Source: Escherichia phage S143_2. Taken from it: 64,000 nucleotides of DNA. Location of the stretch: the sequence record MZ189261.1; one strand, 5' to 3'. Shown in pieces: positions 13,975-58,380 of this stretch (position 1 is the first letter of the stretch; each line of letters starts with the position of its first letter). The position numbers were made by a program, and so were the translations under genes. The notes below the pieces were generated by a model. That model saw only the letters and a program-made list of their open reading frames with translations, searched no databases and was not told the origin of the DNA.

Positions 13975-14211
13975 TTAACCACTTACTGGTGTAGGGGTAA
14001 ACATTGCAGCGTTCTTAGTTTTCCAAGTTGCTGCATCAGAAACGACATCAGAATAAGCTGCCTTTTCTGATGGAAAGATTTGGTAATGAGAATCTGCAAT
14101 CCGATGTTCGTTTGAATAAATCTCAAACGGTACAGAAACTTCCATACCTTTAACTTCTTTGCCTTCACCTGCAGGATGCGTAAAGGTTTTGATATTAACG
14201 TAACCACCCAT
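13975..14211 (-). CDS. soc: small outer capsid protein Soc
   Basis: 78 aa, GYVNIKTF...HYQIFPSEKAAYS matches Soc. Confidence 0.8.
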   Translation of the reverse strand: MGGYVNIKTFTHPAGEGKEVKGMEVSVPFEIYSNEHRIADSHYQIFPSEKAAYSDVVSDAATWKTKNAAMFTPTPVSG

Positions 14212-14242
14212 AATTAACTCCTTTGTTGTTTAATTACAGGTG

Positions 14243-14250
14243 TATTTATA
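14243..14250 (-). promoter_or_regulatory. late promoter TATAAATA upstream of soc
   Basis: exact TATAAATA on minus strand about 30 nt before soc ATG. Confidence 0.55.
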
Positions 14251-14256
14251 ACTTAA

Positions 14257-14778
14257 TCAGTAACCATTATCCTGGCGTTCAAAGTTGTGTTGGTTTTTCA
14301 AGTAGTAAAGTTTAAAGATTTCTTCAGCAGAAAGACCCAGACCTTGGAACATGTTCAGAACGAAGTGCAGAATATCAATCATCTCAAATTTAATTTCAAG
14401 CTGGTCTTCAGGAGACAGTTCATCGATACGACGATTACGATATTCAGCATGTTGTGCTTTCCACGGCTTCCATACACTGCTGGCGGCTTTTTCACCATTG
14501 CTCATACCACCAAGTGAAGTCAGCAGTTCACGGAATTCATCATCAATATAATCTTTCTGATTACGCAGCCAATCAACAACGTCGCCTGCAGTGGCCAATT
14601 CATCAGGATGTTTGTTATGTTCAGGCTTGTCATTTGCCAAACGAACCTGTAAAGATTTCTGCATATCAAGCATTACCTGAAGTGGGTCTTTATCTTCGTG
14701 AATCAGAGCATTAAAATAAGCTTCTTCTGCTTTATCAACACCAGAAATAAGTTGTGAACATTCGTTAAAGTGTGCCAT
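14257..14778 (-). CDS. 56: dCTP pyrophosphatase (dCTPase) gp56
   Basis: MAHFNEC start, MazG-like, conserved LANDKPEH / ETAGDVVDW blocks; start set to ATG behind GGAAA SD. Confidence 0.85.
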   Translation of the reverse strand: MAHFNECSQLISGVDKAEEAYFNALIHEDKDPLQVMLDMQKSLQVRLANDKPEHNKHPDELATAGDVVDWLRNQKDYIDDEFRELLTSLGGMSNGEKAASSVWKPWKAQHAEYRNRRIDELSPEDQLEIKFEMIDILHFVLNMFQGLGLSAEEIFKLYYLKNQHNFERQDNGY

Positions 14779-14866
14779 TATTTTTCCTTTCAATTCAGTA
14801 TAAGAGAGTTAATTCTAACATTAATTTTATAAAGCGTAATAAATAATAGGTAACTAAGGAGATATT

Positions 14867-15064
14867 ATGTTTAAACTTCCATCGTTAATCAATGCTATTA
14901 AAGGCAATAAAAAGAAAACTGCTATCGCCGCAATAGTTGTAGGTGGCATTATTTCATGGAACTTCGGTATCGCACCATTATTAGTTGCTAATGGTATTAT
15001 AGTTCCTTCTGTTCCATTGGATACTGTAGTTGATTTAGCCTTTGCTATTATAGGGCTTGTTTAA
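14867..15064 (+). CDS. small hydrophobic membrane protein (only convincing plus-strand gene)
   Basis: AAGGAG SD 7 nt before ATG; two hydrophobic segments; fills the gap between genes 56 and 61. Confidence 0.5.
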   Translation: MFKLPSLINAIKGNKKKTAIAAIVVGGIISWNFGIAPLLVANGIIVPSVPLDTVVDLAFAIIGLV

Positions 15065-16083
15065 ATCTTCGAATAACGAGATAATCTCATTTTAGCATGC
15101 AACCCACTTGAAATATTCTGTTTCATATATTCTAAAATTTCTTGTGGTGTTGCATTTTCTTTCATTACCATATCATTCACATCCTTTGAACTCCATGGAG
15201 CTCGGTCCCAGAACATGACACGTTCGCCTGCATCAACTAATCGCTTCATGCGAGCTATAGTATCCGGATGCCTAGGTTCATTATCCATTACCCATACCCG
15301 ACGTTCTTTAAATGGTACCACATCTAAATCTATTGAGCCGCCTGTAATAGCGATTGCATTGGGTATGAATAAACTATCAATAGGGCCTTCCATTACCCAG
15401 ACGTCTCCTTCCTTAACACGTTCAACACCATAAATTTTTGTTGCAGACTCGAACGCTTTAATAGTGATATATTTCTGAGGAGCATCTTTACGAAGTGCAC
15501 GTCCTTGGAATGACTCAGCCTTCCCGTCTTTATTAAAAATAGGAATCACTAAACGTGGTTCGGGAATCTCTTTCTTATACGTACCAGGTTGAATCTTGTT
15601 GACCAATTTAGGCCATTCTAATGTGAACCATAATCTGTTCCACGATTCTTTAGGAATACACCGAGACTTAACATATTTCACAATAGGATGCTCTTCGGGC
15701 AGCTTGTCCAGACGAGAACAAGACGGCAAAGAATTTATAGTCTTTTTCTCCGGTTCTGGTTTATGTTCAGGAACCTTTTCAATCTTTGGTTCCATTCTAG
15801 CTTTTTCTTTACGAACTTCCATTAGATATTCGCGATAAAGCTCTTCATCATACTCTTTTAAGTATCCGGAAATTGTATTGTGGTATTGGCAATTATAACA
15901 ATGTACATTACCAGGAGTACCGCCATAATACCATCCGCGAGCTTTCATTGCATCTGTCTGGGAGTCGCCACAAACTGGACATCGAAATGTTAATTTAAAT
16001 GTGCTTGAATTATTGATTTGTCTAAAACGAGGTAGGTGAGAAAACGCGCGATAAGCAAATTCATTATCTATCCATTCAGCCAT
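15061..16083 (-). CDS. 61: DNA primase gp61
   Basis: zinc ribbon CPVCGDS...HCYNC, Toprim motifs (VMEGPIDSLF, VMDNEPRHPD), 340 aa. Confidence 0.9.
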   Translation of the reverse strand: MAEWIDNEFAYRAFSHLPRFRQINNSSTFKLTFRCPVCGDSQTDAMKARGWYYGGTPGNVHCYNCQYHNTISGYLKEYDEELYREYLMEVRKEKARMEPKIEKVPEHKPEPEKKTINSLPSCSRLDKLPEEHPIVKYVKSRCIPKESWNRLWFTLEWPKLVNKIQPGTYKKEIPEPRLVIPIFNKDGKAESFQGRALRKDAPQKYITIKAFESATKIYGVERVKEGDVWVMEGPIDSLFIPNAIAITGGSIDLDVVPFKERRVWVMDNEPRHPDTIARMKRLVDAGERVMFWDRAPWSSKDVNDMVMKENATPQEILEYMKQNISSGLHAKMRLSRYSKI

Positions 16084-16122
16084 AGTATTCTCCAGAGGCC
16101 TTAAATTAATAAGGCCATCTTA

Positions 16123-16590
16123 TCACAACTTATTAATATTTACTTTAATTCGCTTTCTTTTCTTGGAAGGAATTTGTTCTGGACCTTTATTTACTACTGC
16201 ACCTGTAGTTGTTCCTGATGCAATAGCTTGAGGGCTGCCACCTGAATCACCAGCAACCATATCCTCAAATAAAGGGAGTTCTTTAAATATTTCTTTCTGC
16301 TGTTCTTCCGTAATGTTATAGCGTGAAGCTACAGCACTCCAGGCAGACATCATTGAGGCCATTCCATTAAGACCTGGAACAGTGCTCATCATTCGCTTCA
16401 TTGAACGAACTGAAGCATGAAAAGGTGTATAAGCCGCTTTCTCTTCAGGAGTGGAAGGACGTTTAAGAACACTTCCACGTTCATCGATGATTTTGGCTTC
16501 GTATGCTTTCCATTCGGTAAAAGGTTTTTGCATTAGTCGAATAAACTTATATGCGTAAACAGAATCTATTGCAGTGTTAATAATACCCAT
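16123..16590 (-). CDS. hypothetical protein with basic C-terminal tail
   Basis: ORF track trimmed to ATG (MGIINT) behind AGGAGG SD. Confidence 0.5.
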   Translation of the reverse strand: MGIINTAIDSVYAYKFIRLMQKPFTEWKAYEAKIIDERGSVLKRPSTPEEKAAYTPFHASVRSMKRMMSTVPGLNGMASMMSAWSAVASRYNITEEQQKEIFKELPLFEDMVAGDSGGSPQAIASGTTTGAVVNKGPEQIPSKKRKRIKVNINKL

Positions 16591-16808: not shown

Positions 16809-17468
16809 TTAACCTCGATTCATAAATGCATTAAATATTTGGTCATCAACAGAAATTTCTAATTCAGCTTCAATTGTTTCAGCCTTTTCTTCAGGTGGTA
16901 ATTCGTATCCACACACTACAATTTTTTCATCGATATCAAAATATACAGAAGCAATACGATTAATGTTATTTTCAGTTAAGTCTAAATCAACATCAACATC
17001 TTTTTGACCTTCACTTAAAGGATAACTAATACGGGTTATTTTATTATCTTTAACAAAGAGTCCACCAACATACTCTGTACTACGTTTGAAGTTTACACGT
17101 TTCCGAATTGAAAGATATGATGCATCTTTACCGTGAGCTCGGCTCATAGGACATAATGAATAGCTAGAATAAGAGATGTCAAATCCTACACCTTCAATAT
17201 GAGCCAACGTGTCATGATTAAACCAATTATAATCATATGCCAAATCCATTATATTGTAATATGTGAAAGGCACCGGATTAACATCATACGTTGTACCTTT
17301 AAAATCTGCCCAGGCAATGATTTCGTTATCTTTAACAATTACAAAAATTACACCAATATGATATCCGTTATTATTTTCGTTCGGCGTTATATTATAACAT
17401 TGTGCATTAGGAAATTTACCATATTTAAATGGCGCATTTTTGTGCATATAATAAATCATATTATTCAC
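16809..17468 (-). CDS. hypothetical protein (219 aa)
   Basis: ORF track. Confidence 0.55.
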   Translation of the reverse strand: MNNMIYYMHKNAPFKYGKFPNAQCYNITPNENNNGYHIGVIFVIVKDNEIIAWADFKGTTYDVNPVPFTYYNIMDLAYDYNWFNHDTLAHIEGVGFDISYSSYSLCPMSRAHGKDASYLSIRKRVNFKRSTEYVGGLFVKDNKITRISYPLSEGQKDVDVDLDLTENNINRIASVYFDIDEKIVVCGYELPPEEKAETIEAELEISVDDQIFNAFMNRG

Positions 17469-17754
17469 CTGTGATTTCGGTTACGATATCTTTGTTATCG
17501 AAATTAGGGTCACAATACAAAACATAATTGTACTGCATGATACCGCCAGACTTAAGTTGTTCAACAACTTTATTAACCATATTAGGACGGTCTCGTTTAG
17601 TGATGTTCATGATATCAGAGAAGATTTGTTGTTCAACATCTTCTTGATTTGCAGTCATTGACCACTCACAGAGGTCTTTATCATAACCTGCCGTAACTGG
17701 AGCTGGTGCACATGATACTGCGAGTAAGATTGCTGCCAATGATAACCTTTTCAT
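17461..17754 (-). CDS. sp: periplasmic protein with signal peptide, Spackle (Sp)-like
   Basis: 97 aa, N-terminal signal sequence; size and Cys pattern fit T4 Sp. Confidence 0.5.
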   Translation of the reverse strand: MKRLSLAAILLAVSCAPAPVTAGYDKDLCEWSMTANQEDVEQQIFSDIMNITKRDRPNMVNKVVEQLKSGGIMQYNYVLYCDPNFDNKDIVTEITGE

Positions 17755-17774
17755 TTTAACTCCTTAGTTGATTT

Positions 17775-17813
17775 GATAGGACTACTATACTATAGTCCAT
17801 CTATAATGTAAAC
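17775..17813 (-). promoter_or_regulatory. early promoter with stem-loop
   Basis: minus-sense GTTTAC, 18 nt, TATAGT; ggacta...tagtcc hairpin around -10. Confidence 0.5.
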
Positions 17814-17817
17814 AAGT

Positions 17818-18066
17818 TTATTCTTTTTCGCGAATAATAATTACTTGTTGAGGCTGTAGAGCAGATTTCTTTTCGGCAACGATAGACCAAATTAAAGTTC
17901 CAATCCAACCAACCATCGTCCAGTTAAAGAGTAAAGATACGAAGAAGATTGCTGTTGTGCTTTTTGTGCCACGAATAAGTGCGATTACCCAAGGCAACAT
18001 GTAAATGATGATTGAACCAATACCTGCGATTAAAACTGCTACTGAACTAGCTACGAATAATTCCAT
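17818..18066 (-). CDS. imm: superinfection immunity (Imm)-like membrane protein
   Basis: two TM segments, IALIRG...WT.VGW motif typical of the Imm family. Confidence 0.55.
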   Translation of the reverse strand: MELFVASSVAVLIAGIGSIIIYMLPWVIALIRGTKSTTAIFFVSLLFNWTMVGWIGTLIWSIVAEKKSALQPQQVIIIREKE

Positions 18067-54400: not shown

Positions 54401-55390
54401 TTATTTATAGTAAGAATTATGATTTTCGAGATAGACTTGTTCAAGGAAGTCATCCCAGAAACTCATATCTACTTTTTGTTGCATACCGTTCTTGGCAGCT
54501 TGTTCTGACGCATGTTCAACTTGGTCAACGATATCTTCTAGGAATTCTTGTACAGTTTTAAAAGTATGTTTACCAAGCTTAACATCGAGAATAAATGGAG
54601 CATCCTGAAGTGGGTAAACCAGGTCGCCTGTTTTGTAAATTTCCAATAATTGAAGTCCACCACGGCATGCATGACTCAATGCTTTCCAGTCAATACCTTC
54701 GTTAGCTTCTGCTTTACGAGCACGTTCGCCATAGTTCTCTTCTAGTTTAACAAGGATGGCATTGAACTCTTTATTGGTTAACGTGTCTTGGAATTTACGG
54801 TCTAACAGATTATAGAATGTTTGCTTACCTGTTTTCTCGTTTTCGGTTTCAACCCATGAAGCAAATTCACCTACAGGCAGAACATTCTTCATATGTGATA
54901 AACGAATTACTGCACCATTATCAAAGTATTGTCCCCATTCATTAGAACGTTTAAGGGCTTGACGAAGAACAGCCAGTCGAGAACCCTTGACACCGTATTT
55001 AGAAGCTTGCTTACGGACATACCCTAAATAAGATTTCATGTTAGTGGTATAGAAACGAGACCTGTTATCTTGAATATACTTCCATACATCAGGCAAATCA
55101 GATTTAACTACTAGACTTGGTGGAGTGTGAAGCATATCTAATGCGACGGTTTCACCATCCGCAGCTAGTTTAAAGAAATATTTGAGACTATACAACTCAT
55201 GGTCCACGTCGTCTTTTGTGTTCTTAGAAGATGTGTTATTCGTGTTCTTGCTCATATGTTCTTTAACGTTACCGGTCAAAATATCACGAGCATGAGGGAC
55301 ATAAATTTCTTTAAAATCGACGTCAGATTCAGGAGTAGACGTTCCATAAAGGTGGCTACCAAAGTAGCCTTTCATAATTGTTTTCATCAT
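54401..55390 (-). CDS. nucleotidyltransferase-fold protein (Pol-beta superfamily)
   Basis: GS-x9-SDVD signature (YFGSHLYGTSTPESDVDF), 329 aa. Confidence 0.55.
   Translation of the reverse strand: MMKTIMKGYFGSHLYGTSTPESDVDFKEIYVPHARDILTGNVKEHMSKNTNNTSSKNTKDDVDHELYSLKYFFKLAADGETVALDMLHTPPSLVVKSDLPDVWKYIQDNRSRFYTTNMKSYLGYVRKQASKYGVKGSRLAVLRQALKRSNEWGQYFDNGAVIRLSHMKNVLPVGEFASWVETENEKTGKQTFYNLLDRKFQDTLTNKEFNAILVKLEENYGERARKAEANEGIDWKALSHACRGGLQLLEIYKTGDLVYPLQDAPFILDVKLGKHTFKTVQEFLEDIVDQVEHASEQAAKNGMQQKVDMSFWDDFLEQVYLENHNSYYK
54402..54409 (-). promoter_or_regulatory. late promoter TATAAATA
   Basis: exact TATAAATA on minus strand about 30 nt before ATG of 54088..54369. Confidence 0.5.
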
Positions 55391-57771: not shown

Positions 57772-57798
57772 ATATACCTCTTGGTTAGATATTAGTAT

Positions 57799-58380
57799 TT
57801 ATAACAACCCTGTCAAATCATTCCAATGCTTCCGGCATAATGACACATATCTATCAGTATCACCAATTTCAATTTGACTGCCATCTGTAATTGGAAGTCC
57901 GTCTTCCGTGACTCTAGCTACCATTGTGGCCTTTTTACCACAATGACAGACACCTTTAAGTTCAACAAGCTTATCGGCAATAGCCATTAATGCTTGAGAA
58001 CCTTCAAATAGATTACCTTTAAAATCTGTTCGTAGTCCATATGCCATTACCGGCACATTGTATACGTCAACAATACGACTAAGTTGATACACCTTTTCAG
58101 TAGTTAAGAATTGAGCTTCGTCAACAAATACACAATGAATATCCTTTTGTGCTGCAGCCCATTTATAGAATTCAAAGATATCCATGTCTTTTGTAATTAT
58201 ATTGGCGTCCTGACGAATACCAATACGAGAGACTATTTCACCTTTTGAATCGCGAGTATCAATAGCCGGTTTAAGAACTAATACACCCATGCCACGTTCT
58301 TTATAGTTATGAGCGGCAGTAAGTAATGAAGCAGACTTACCAGCGTTCATAGCGGCATATGTAAAAATTAAACTAGCCAT
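57799..58380 (-). CDS. tk: thymidine kinase
   Basis: Walker A AAMNAGKS, zinc-ribbon Cys pairs, 193 aa. Confidence 0.9.
   Translation of the reverse strand: MASLIFTYAAMNAGKSASLLTAAHNYKERGMGVLVLKPAIDTRDSKGEIVSRIGIRQDANIITKDMDIFEFYKWAAAQKDIHCVFVDEAQFLTTEKVYQLSRIVDVYNVPVMAYGLRTDFKGNLFEGSQALMAIADKLVELKGVCHCGKKATMVARVTEDGLPITDGSQIEIGDTDRYVSLCRKHWNDLTGLL

What the first reader, a model, noticed from the sequence alone, without database searches (positions are those of the whole stretch)
14867..15064. Single plus-strand gene: small membrane protein between genes 56 and 61
All other credible genes are on the minus strand. This 65-aa ORF has a strong AAGGAG SD at ideal spacing, two hydrophobic segments, and fills the 56/61 intergenic gap without overlap. 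An imperfect late-promoter-like AATAAATA lies just upstream. It could be a late-expressed membrane protein of holin/antiholin or exclusion type.
Basis: seen in the sequence. Interest (0 to 1): 0.45.

Follow-up and report, generated by a model that had tools for sequence, protein, structure and literature searches.

The report
Conserved late small membrane-protein gene
The lone plus-strand ORF between the dCTPase and primase genes of this RB69-like phage is a real, already annotated gene for a 65-residue inner-membrane protein of untested function; it is conserved across T-even phages with a late-promoter motif, and its T4 counterpart is missing from the T4 reference annotation.

Summary
ORF 14867..15064 (+) exists, with SD AAGGAG (14856-14861, 5-nt spacer) and AATAAATA (14838-14845). 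It is the only credible plus-strand gene in the window.

It is not new. The window is a Mosigvirus (98.8% identical to JS09), and the ORF is RB69ORF029w, the counterpart of T4T "dam.1", in PHROG 2024 (unknown function). The T4 RefSeq NC_000866 leaves the intact ortholog (17738..17938) unannotated.

It is truly coding. The reading frame is intact in 23 homologs from more than 7 genera, down to about 20-30% identity. dN/dS is 0.05-0.2, and the SD is conserved.

An NATAAATA motif lies 15-22 nt upstream of the start in nearly every lineage examined (perfect TATAAATA in IME523; TATTAAATA in the Moonvirus and Gelderlandvirus examples). The core heptamer is about 3-fold depleted in the window. A(-13) is the commonest accepted T4 late-promoter variant. 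The motif sits back-to-back with a MotA-type middle promoter for gene 56.

The protein is most likely single-pass and N-in/C-out: a basic N-terminus (+5), a TM helix at about residues 18-41 with an invariant W-N-x…P core, a proline-rich linker, and a short acidic amphipathic helix. The second hydrophobic stretch is too short and too polar to span a membrane.

Holin, antiholin and Imm membership tests fail or remain untested. The function is unknown. My best guess is a late accessory envelope protein. Interest is low to moderate.

The parts
14838..14845 (+). AATAAATA, a gp55-type late-promoter motif (A(-13) variant of TATAAATA). The predicted transcription start is near 14851-14853.
   Evidence: Sequence. 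NATAAATA (A/G/C/T at the first base) lies 15-22 nt upstream of the ATG in Mosig-, Tequatro-, Gapriver-, Dhaka- and Kanagawavirus and in Raoultella phage M21a; Moon- and Gelderlandvirus have TATTAAATA. ATAAATA is depleted in the window, 9 found against 29.5±6.4 expected. The A(-13) variant accounts for 9 of 50 listed T4 late promoters (PMC2988020). Promoter activity is inferred, not shown.
14856..14861 (+). Shine-Dalgarno sequence AAGGAG, 5 nt upstream of the ATG.
   Evidence: A strong SD (mostly AGGAGG/AAGGAGG; GGAGG in PEi26) is conserved ahead of the first gene of the locus in the examined genera, except IME523, whose start assignment is uncertain.
14867..15064 (+). CDS of 65 aa plus stop. 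Ortholog of RB69ORF029w, JS09_0153, PhAPEC2 gp026 and T4T Dam.1; PHROG 2024.
   Evidence: dN/dS is 0.05-0.2 in the informative comparisons. The frame is open in all 23 homologs.
14867..14917 (+). Residues 1-17: basic N-terminal segment (net charge +5) with a short amphipathic helix. Predicted to be cytoplasmic.
   Evidence: Charge count. AlphaFold2 helix at residues 4-13. The cytoplasmic placement follows from the positive-inside rule and is an inference.
14918..14989 (+). Residues 18-41: transmembrane helix carrying the invariant W31-N32-(F/Y/L)33 … P37 core.
   Evidence: The best 19-mer is residues 18-36. TMHMM gave 21-41 for RB69ORF029w (PMC1524935 Additional File 2). AlphaFold2 helix at 15-41, pLDDT 88-91. 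Invariant columns.
14990..15016 (+). Residues 42-50: proline-rich non-helical linker with conserved G43 and P47.
   Evidence: AlphaFold2 coil at 42-50. Conservation.
15017..15061 (+). Residues 51-65: short amphipathic helix with an acidic face (D52, D56). Predicted to be periplasmic or interfacial, not a second span.
   Evidence: AlphaFold2 helix at 51-62 only. Crude insertion cost of +8 kcal/mol and a high hydrophobic moment. An acidic residue at position 52 is conserved as D or E in nearly all subtypes.
15061..15064 (.). TTAA: 4-nt overlap of the convergent stop codons of this ORF (+) and primase gene 61 (-).
   Evidence: The same arrangement occurs in T4, RB69, CF1, Melville, JS98 and PEi26. 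No terminator-like hairpin was found on either strand in 14200-16200.
14812..14835 (-). Neighbouring element, not part of the gene: a MotA-type middle promoter for gene 56. It has a MotA-box-like GCTTTA (14835-14830), a 12-nt spacer and a -10 TAGAAT (14817-14812), and lies back-to-back with the late motif.
   Evidence: The same layout, TGCTTTA + 11-12 nt + TATAAT, occurs in AR1, UPEC01, JS98 and ESCO47. The assignment rests on the established MotA-box consensus and is an inference.

Best explanation
This is a genuine, already annotated phage gene: RB69ORF029w, the counterpart of T4 'dam.1', in PHROG 2024.

Shown:
- It is protein-coding and under purifying selection.
- It is conserved as the lone plus-strand gene abutting the 3' end of primase gene 61 throughout the enterobacterial Tevenvirinae.
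- It always carries its own strong SD, and in nearly every lineage examined an NATAAATA motif 15-22 nt upstream of the start codon.

Inferred:
- It is transcribed late in infection by gp55/gp33/gp45-RNA polymerase from that motif. The window's version is the A(-13) variant of the T4 late promoter.
- That late promoter sits back-to-back with the MotA-dependent middle promoter of gene 56.
- With no terminator after the ORF, the late transcript runs convergently into gene 61.
- The 65-residue product inserts into the inner membrane as a single-pass N-in/C-out protein. It has a basic cytoplasmic N-terminus, one TM helix with an invariant W-N-(F/Y/L)…P core, a proline-rich turn, and a 12-15-residue acidic amphipathic helix at the periplasmic face.

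Proposed mechanism (speculative, about 25% for the specific role): like other bacterial and phage micro-membrane proteins, it works by binding and modulating a larger membrane protein or complex through the conserved intramembrane motif. It would then be a dispensable accessory factor of the late envelope programme, affecting lysis timing, lysis inhibition or membrane integrity. It is not itself a canonical holin.
For: Identity:
- The region is 98.8% identical to JS09.
- 100%-identical proteins are annotated as hypothetical in many Mosigvirus records.
- PHROG 2024 matches full length at E=1.4e-26.
- The T4T dam.1 ortholog is 52% identical, on the same strand and in the same position.

Coding:
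- Window vs RB69 shows 11 synonymous and 2 nonsynonymous changes; window vs ESCO47 shows 32 and 17, giving dN/dS 0.085.
- The frame is open in 23 of 23 homologs, whereas every other frame is interrupted in the distant ones.
- An in-frame 3-codon deletion is tolerated in OE5505.

Distribution:
- The family is found in Mosig-, Tequatro-, Gapriver-, Moon-, Gelderland-, Dhaka- and Kanagawavirus and in Klebsiella/Raoultella T4-likes.
- Only 20 clusters at 50% identity match among 1.84 billion representatives.

Promoter:
- The motif is conserved and the core heptamer is depleted in the window.
- Its distance to the ATG is constant while its position relative to the minus-strand MotA box varies.
- The literature accepts A(-13) as a late-promoter variant.
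- No sigma-70-like plus-strand promoter lies upstream.

Topology.
Against: - There is no direct expression evidence. No transcript, 5' end, ribosome footprint or peptide was available. The T4 dRNA-seq TSS table that could settle this is not held.
- The HMM of Nolan et al. 2006 did not call a late promoter at this RB69 position.
- T4 has G, and several genera have C, at -13. The activity of these variants in vivo is unquantified (PMC2988020).
- The topology rests on prediction only. A helical hairpin (N-in/C-in) is not excluded.
- Nothing found bears directly on function. There is no homology to any characterised protein, and the gene contexts outside T4-like phages are heterogeneous.
Confidence: 0.72

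Rival explanations
1. It is a holin, pinholin or antiholin that takes part directly in lysis.
For: It is a small membrane protein with a late-type promoter. UniRef/BFVD label the OE5505 ortholog 'Holin' and KP1079 is annotated 'putative holin', both by automated annotation. In uncultured non-T4 phages a family member lies two genes upstream of a T4-lysozyme-like gene on the same strand (L028/L029).
Against: - No Pfam holin or rI family matches, even at E<=10.
- The C-terminus is hydrophobic, with no charged tail. All basic residues are N-terminal.
- The gene is not adjacent to an endolysin or spanin gene in any T4-like phage examined.
- By established knowledge, T-even phages use holin T and t-null mutants do not lyse, so a second autonomous holin is unlikely.
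- The periplasmic part is about 24 aa, far smaller than the RI periplasmic domain.
- In L026-L028 the member is translationally coupled to a soluble 180-aa protein resembling a minor tail protein, not to the lysozyme.
Confidence: 0.1
2. It is a superinfection-exclusion or immunity-type membrane protein, like Imm or Sp.
For: It is a small inner-membrane protein in the same genome neighbourhood as sp and imm (17461-18066). In contig L032 a family member is the last phage gene before host genes, a typical position for a moron or exclusion gene.
Against: The profile comparison with the window's own Imm gave probability 0.2%. There is no PADLOC hit. By established knowledge, exclusion proteins of T4 are made early, whereas this gene lies on the anti-early strand with a late-type motif and no sigma-70 promoter.
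Confidence: 0.08
3. The functional unit is the late promoter, not the protein. Convergent late transcription would produce antisense RNA against primase (61) and early read-through transcripts, and the ORF would be incidental.
For: There is no terminator between the ORF and gene 61, and the stop codons overlap, so a plus-strand transcript must run antisense into gene 61. Both T4 strands are known to be transcribed at different times at several sites (PMC2988020).
Against: The amino-acid sequence is under purifying selection, and the start codon, SD, length and W-N-x…P…G…P motif are conserved down to about 20-30% identity. Some phages put a bidirectional hairpin (M21a) or about 100 nt (PSD2001) between the ORF and gene 61. 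Family members also occur in phages where the gene is not next to a primase gene. An antisense side-effect remains possible in addition to the protein's own role.
Confidence: 0.05
4. The true coding frame is on the minus strand: a read-through extension of primase gp61, or an antisense ORF. The frame in register with gene 61 stays open for the whole 65 codons.
For: That antisense frame has no stop beyond gene 61's own in all Mosig-, Tequatro- and Gapriver A-type sequences. It also shows low dN/dS, 0.09-0.17.
Against: - The frame shares wobble positions with the plus frame, so low dN/dS is expected there.
- Stops in that frame require Tyr, or His/Gln after a T-ending codon, in the plus frame. 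These residues are nearly absent from A-type proteins.
- In subtypes that contain Y, H or Q the antisense frame has 2-5 stops, while the plus frame stays open.
- Variable sites fall 18/3/38 at positions 1/2/3 in the plus frame. In the minus frame this would put the excess at codon position 2.
- The ORF is uncoupled from gene 61 in PSD2001 and M21a.
Confidence: 0.02

Closest known systems
RB69ORF029w / T4T Dam.1 (T4Tp032) / PHROG 2024, a family of uncharacterised small membrane proteins of T-even phages
   Same: It is 97-100% identical to RB69, JS09 and PhAPEC2 proteins and 52% identical to T4 Dam.1. It has the same length, the same strand and the same position abutting the 3' end of gene 61, and the same W-N-(F/Y/L)…P…G…P motif.
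   Different: Nothing of substance; this is the family the ORF belongs to. Unlike T4, this phage has no dam gene between the ORF and gene 56, so the ORF is directly divergent from 56.
Phage holins (class II/III, pinholin S21 type)
   Same: Small size, a membrane location and a predicted late promoter.
   Different: No sequence-family match, no charged C-terminal tail, only one credible TM, no linkage to endolysin or spanin genes in T4-like phages, and these phages already have holin T.
T4 Imm (superinfection immunity protein)
   Same: A small inner-membrane protein of T-even phages, encoded within about 3 kb in this genome.
   Different: No detectable homology (hhalign probability 0.2%). Imm lies on the early strand and has two clear TM segments. 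This gene has a late-type promoter on the opposite strand.
T4 soc, as an example of a late gene embedded in the early region
   Same: It has its own late promoter inside a block of early and middle genes. soc has a perfect TATAAATA at 14243-14250 (-), about 600 bp away.
   Different: soc is on the minus strand and encodes a soluble capsid decoration protein. This gene is on the plus strand, uses the A(-13) variant and encodes a membrane protein.

Membership tests
PHROG 2024 / RB69ORF029w / T4 Dam.1 family | Full-length match to the family profile | tested here: met
   phrog_2024 at E=1.4e-26, residues 1-65 against profile positions 1-65 of 65. tblastn finds it in 734 phage records, 690 of them covering at least 80% of the query.
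PHROG 2024 / RB69ORF029w / T4 Dam.1 family | Conserved synteny: plus strand, convergent with and abutting the 3' end of primase gene 61 | tested here: met
PHROG 2024 / RB69ORF029w / T4 Dam.1 family | Core motif W-N-(F/Y/L)-x3-P-x5-G-x3-P after a basic N-terminus | tested here: met
   W31, N32 and P37 are invariant; P47 is invariant in two of the three alignments and G43 is invariant or nearly so.
Holins | At least one transmembrane domain in a small protein | tested here: met
   One TM at about residues 18-41.
Holins | Hydrophilic, highly charged C-terminal tail | tested here: not met
   The C-terminus is …DLAFAIIGLV, with no basic residue after position 17 and a net charge of -2 over residues 42-65.
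Holins | Gene in a lysis cassette next to an endolysin or spanin gene | tested here: not met
   The neighbours are dCTPase (56) and primase (61) in all T4-like loci. Only in uncultured non-T4 contigs does a lysozyme gene lie two genes downstream.
Holins | Sequence match to a described holin family | tested here: not met
   No Pfam family matches at E<=10. There is no meaningful NCBIfam hit and no PDB or BFVD match other than its own orthologs.
Holins | Lethal hole formation, or collapse of the proton-motive force, on expression | not testable with these tools
   This needs an expression experiment.
T4 RI-type antiholin | N-terminal SAR or signal-anchor domain plus a folded periplasmic domain that binds holin T | tested here: not met
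   The periplasmic part is only about 24 residues, and no Pfam match was found. Binding to T is not testable here.
Imm superinfection-immunity protein | Homology to Imm | tested here: not met
   hhalign of family alignment A3 against the window's own Imm gave probability 0.2%.
gp55-dependent T4-type late promoter | 8-bp TATAAATA box (single deviations tolerated, A(-13) the commonest) about one helical turn upstream of the start, with an AT-rich stretch downstream | tested here: met
   AATAAATA lies at 14838-14845, followed by ATAGGTA. The A(-13) variant is documented. The motif is conserved across genera.
gp55-dependent T4-type late promoter | A late, gp55/gp33/gp45-dependent RNA 5' end in vivo | not testable with these tools
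   The T4 dRNA-seq TSS table (bioRxiv 10.1101/2024.04.04.588121, Table S9B) is not held. Nolan et al.'s HMM did not list this site for RB69.

The most novel reading that the evidence does not exclude
The Dam.1/ORF029w protein is an overlooked late component of the T-even envelope or lysis programme, for example a modulator of holin T, RI-mediated lysis inhibition, the spanins or membrane energisation. It would have escaped 60 years of T4 genetics and all modern T4 omics and knock-down screens because the T4 reference annotation (NC_000866) omits the ORF. A secondary possibility is that its late transcript also serves as antisense RNA against the primase message.
Probability: 0.15. Interest if true: 0.6.

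Novelty: already known. Interest (0 to 1): 0.27.

Why it matters
As a sequence feature it is ordinary: an annotated hypothetical gene. Its modest value is practical.

- It is one of the few genes conserved across the enterobacterial T-even phages that has no function assigned.
- It is the only gene on the 'late' strand in more than 50 kb of early region.
- It has a conserved late-promoter motif.
- It is absent from the T4 RefSeq annotation, so transcriptomic, proteomic and CRISPRi screens built on that annotation cannot have seen it.

Adding T4 17738..17938 (+) to the reference, and deleting the gene, would be cheap tests of whether T-even phages carry an unrecognised late membrane factor.

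Tried and rejected
- Literature searches for 'dam.1', RB69ORF029w, T4Tp032 and the protein accessions found nothing. Searches for T4 ribosome-profiling or small-ORF studies found nothing relevant.
- The Miller 2003 T4 genome review is not held.
- The T4 dRNA-seq preprint is held, but its TSS table is not.
- The search for related loci failed with the family alignment because no stretch was conserved enough. With single proteins it gave only 7 close loci.
- Pfam, NCBIfam, PADLOC, the PDB sequence profile and Foldseek against BFVD and PDB gave no informative match beyond orthologs.
- I considered a second TM segment (helical hairpin). I rejected it as the less likely topology.
- I considered a SAR-like TM, because the window's TM is rich in Ala and Gly. 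I rejected it because the Gaprivervirus orthologs have a strongly hydrophobic TM.
- I considered a minus-strand coding frame or gp61 read-through. I rejected it on composition and on the stops present in distant homologs.
- I considered that ATAAATA might belong to the minus-strand middle promoter of gene 56. I rejected this because its position relative to the MotA box varies, and because it persists where gene 56 is not the neighbour.
- The gene contexts of distant family members gave no consistent functional clue. They were: tail-tip/EndoVII/180-aa/lysozyme cassettes, the edge of a phage-derived region next to host genes, and a RelA_SpoT neighbour.

Full report
**What is there.**
- The window carries an ATG-initiated ORF at 14867..15064 (+) encoding 65 aa: MFKLPSLINAIKGNKKKTAIAAIVVGGIISWNFGIAPLLVANGIIVPSVPLDTVVDLAFAIIGLV.
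- AAGGAG lies at 14856-14861, 5 nt upstream of the ATG. AATAAATA lies at 14838-14845.
- On the left is gene 56 (dCTPase, 14257..14778, -). On the right is gene 61 (primase, 15061..16083, -).
- The ORF's stop codon overlaps the primase stop by 4 nt (TTAA), so the ORF does not strictly fill the gap 'without overlap'.

**Where the window comes from, and whether the ORF is known.**
- The region is 98.8% identical to Escherichia phage JS09. It matches 560 T-even-type phage records.
- The window is a Mosigvirus, the RB69 group. The 65-aa protein is 100% identical to annotated 'hypothetical proteins' in many such genomes.
- In RB69 it is RB69ORF029w, in JS09 it is JS09_0153, and in PhAPEC2 it is gp026, at exactly the window's coordinates.
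- It matches PHROG 2024 ('unknown function') over its full length at E=1.4e-26.
- It has no Pfam, NCBIfam or PADLOC family.
- Nolan et al. 2006 (PMC1524935) already listed RB69ORF029w with one predicted TM at residues 21-41.
- Tequatroviruses, T4 included, encode a 66-aa ortholog (52% identity) in the same place and orientation.
- That ortholog is annotated as 'dam.1' in T4T (HM137666).
- The T4 RefSeq NC_000866.4 has no feature between dam and gene 61, although the ORF is intact at 17738..17938 (+).
- No paper in the searchable library mentions it by any of these names.

**The 'only plus-strand gene' claim.**
- In PhAPEC2, 82 of the 83 CDSs in the stretch matching window 1-49,900 are on the minus strand. 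The exception is this ORF.
- My own tiling of the whole 64-kb window kept 111 ORFs, 5 of them on the plus strand. Only this one has an ATG start and an SD. The two largest others overlap minus-strand ORFs, i.e. they are shadows of those genes.

**Is it coding?**
- I collected 23 homologs from Mosig-, Tequatro-, Gapriver-, Moon-, Gelderland-, Dhaka- and Kanagawavirus and from a Raoultella T4-like phage.
- All have an open plus-strand frame of 61-73 codons, down to about 20-30% identity.
- Nei-Gojobori counts give the following:

| Comparison | Synonymous | Nonsynonymous | dN/dS |
|---|---|---|---|
| Window vs RB69 | 11 | 2 | 0.05 |
| Window vs ESCO47 | 32 | 17 | 0.085 |
| Window vs T4 | 34.3 | 51.7 | 0.19 |

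- Variable sites in the Mosigvirus set fall 18/3/38 at codon positions 1/2/3.
- One caveat had to be resolved. The minus-strand frame in register with gene 61 is also open across the ORF in the close relatives, and it also shows low dN/dS.
- That frame shares wobble positions with the plus frame. It acquires stops only where the plus frame has Tyr, or His/Gln after a T-ending codon, and these residues are nearly absent from these proteins.
- In the subtypes that do contain Y, H or Q, the antisense frame has 2-5 stops while the plus frame stays intact.
- The plus-strand ORF is therefore the gene.

**Family structure and distribution.**
- There are two main paralogous subtypes: A (this window, T4, Gaprivervirus first copy) and B (JS98, IME523), plus a Moonvirus/Gelderlandvirus/Klebsiella-phage variant.
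- UPEC01 carries A then B in tandem. ESCO47 carries B then A.
- The B copy is frameshifted in TH22 and deleted in PSD2001, so one copy suffices.
- W31, N32 and P37 are invariant in all three family alignments. P47 is invariant in two of them, and G43 is invariant or nearly so.
- A profile HMM search of 1.84 billion cluster representatives found only 20 clusters. It is a small, phage-restricted family.
- Outside T4-like genomes, distant members occur in uncultured phage contigs. There they sit between an endonuclease VII gene and a translationally coupled 180-aa protein weakly resembling a minor tail protein. In some contigs a T4-lysozyme-like gene lies two genes further on.
- Other distant members sit at the edge of a phage-derived region next to host genes, or directly upstream of a RelA_SpoT-domain gene.
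- These contexts are too heterogeneous to assign a function.

**Expression signals.**
- In nearly every lineage, the first gene of the locus is preceded by a strong SD and, 15-22 nt upstream of the ATG, by NATAAATA:

| First base | Motif | Lineages |
|---|---|---|
| A | AATAAATA | this window, AR1, JS98 |
| G | GATAAATA | T4 |
| C | CATAAATA | Gaprivervirus, ESCO47, PEi26, M21a |
| T | TATAAATA | IME523 |
| (variant) | TATTAAATA | Moonvirus, Gelderlandvirus |

- The surrounding intergenic sequence is otherwise diverged.
- The heptamer ATAAATA is strongly avoided in the window: 9 found against 29.5±6.4 expected. The only perfect TATAAATA nearby is the soc late promoter at 14243-14250 (-).
- According to Geiduschek & Kassavetis 2010 (PMC2988020), 32 of the 50 listed T4 late promoters are perfect, 9 have A(-13), and the rest mostly carry other single deviations.
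- Nolan et al. 2006 note that T(-13) is poorly conserved (A or T) in RB69 and its relatives.
- There is no sigma-70-like plus-strand promoter upstream.
- On the opposite strand the same 88-nt spacer contains GCTTTA, a 12-nt spacer and TAGAAT (14835-14812). This is the architecture of a MotA-dependent middle promoter for gene 56.
- That architecture is conserved as TGCTTTA + 11-12 nt + TATAAT in AR1, UPEC01, JS98 and ESCO47.
- The late motif's position relative to this MotA box varies, while its distance to the ORF's start codon does not. The motif also persists where the left neighbour is dam or another gene. It therefore belongs to the plus-strand gene.
- Late, gp55-dependent transcription is thus a well-supported inference. 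It has not been shown, and Nolan's HMM did not list this site.
- No terminator follows the ORF, so the transcript should continue antisense into gene 61. M21a has a hairpin there instead.

**The protein.**
- Residues 1-17 carry a net charge of +5.
- The best membrane-spanning 19-mer is residues 18-36. The C-terminal stretch 44-62 costs about +8 kcal/mol on a crude Hessa-scale sum because of D52 and D56 (+5 to +11 in the other subtypes).
- AlphaFold2, run with a 31-sequence alignment, gave a mean pLDDT of 81. It predicts helices at 4-13, 15-41 and 51-62 and a proline-rich coil at 42-50.
- Together with the published TMHMM call and the positive-inside rule, the likeliest topology is single-pass N-in/C-out, with a short acidic amphipathic helix at the periplasmic face. 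A hairpin topology is not excluded.
- Structure and sequence searches against PDB and BFVD return only the protein's own orthologs.

- Holin: one TM and small size fit. The charged C-terminal tail, the linkage to endolysin and any family match are all absent. T-even phages already rely on holin T (established knowledge).
- RI-type antiholin: the periplasmic part is too small.
- Imm: no homology to the window's own Imm (probability 0.2%), and the predicted timing is wrong.
- The 'Holin' labels on a few orthologs are automated annotations.
- The general idea of a late membrane protein is therefore supported. The specific classes are not.

**Verdict.**
- This is a real but already annotated gene of unknown function.
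- Its anatomy is now better defined: a conserved late-promoter variant placed back-to-back with the gene 56 middle promoter, a convergent stop-codon overlap with the primase gene, and a single-pass membrane product with an invariant intramembrane W-N-x…P motif.
- The most useful by-product is the observation that the T4 reference annotation lacks the ortholog.
- Interest is low to moderate.

Noticed in passing
T4 NC_000866.4 17738..17938 (+) = locus L003 2739..2939: The T4 RefSeq record has no feature between dam and gene 61, yet the 66-aa ortholog is intact there, with GATAAATA and an AGGAGG SD upstream. It is annotated as dam.1 in T4T. T4 omics and screens built on NC_000866 therefore cannot have reported it.
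   Followed up: partly
window 14812-14835 (-): A MotA-box-like GCTTTA, a 12-nt spacer and TAGAAT lie upstream of gene 56: a probable MotA-dependent middle promoter, back-to-back with the plus-strand late motif. It is conserved as TGCTTTA + 11-12 nt + TATAAT in AR1, UPEC01, JS98 and ESCO47.
   Followed up: partly
window 14243-14250 (-): A perfect TATAAATA lies just upstream of soc (13975..14211, -), presumably the soc late promoter. Two more perfect sites are on the minus strand at 54402-54409 and 57796-57803.
   Followed up: no
whole window: The late-promoter core ATAAATA is about 3-fold depleted (9 found against 29.5±6.4 expected), and TATAAATA occurs 3 times against 7.3 expected. This suggests selection against spurious late promoters in the early region.
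   Followed up: partly
window 14779-15060 compared with T4 (L003): This phage lacks the dam methyltransferase gene, and also segF, both of which T4 carries between gene 61 and soc. The region between 56 and 61 is a variable insertion site, with other ORFs inserted there in CF1, OE5505, IME523 and PEi26.
   Followed up: no
L005 2001-2407 (UPEC01); L017 1287-1680 (ESCO47); L008 2265-2423 (TH22); L006 (PSD2001): Some phages carry two paralogs of the family in tandem, in the order A-B or B-A. The B copy is frameshifted in TH22 and deleted in PSD2001. UPEC01's B copy is mislabelled 'DNA packaging ATPase'.
   Followed up: partly
L020 1501..1701 (JS98), L023 (IME523), L024 (PEi26): The family member is present but unannotated in the JS98 RefSeq record and in the IME523 and PEi26 records.
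   Followed up: no
L031 5798..5971 (PQ671644.1 Escherichia phage DCP80): There is an unannotated 57-aa family member in a cassette of tail-tip protein, EndoVII, 183-aa protein, 99-aa protein and endolysin. The cassette resembles uncultured non-T4 contigs (L026-L029). The record is only 141 kb yet is labelled Gaprivervirus, so it may be a chimeric assembly.
   Followed up: no
L033 129..1383: On a 2-kb metagenomic contig, a 59-aa distant family member sits 17 nt upstream of a 352-aa RelA_SpoT-domain protein.
   Followed up: no
window 14854-15060 (-): The antisense frame in register with gene 61 is open across the whole ORF. This is explained by the absence of Tyr, His and Gln in the plus-frame protein. 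It is a reminder that dN/dS cannot separate two frames that share wobble positions.
   Followed up: yes
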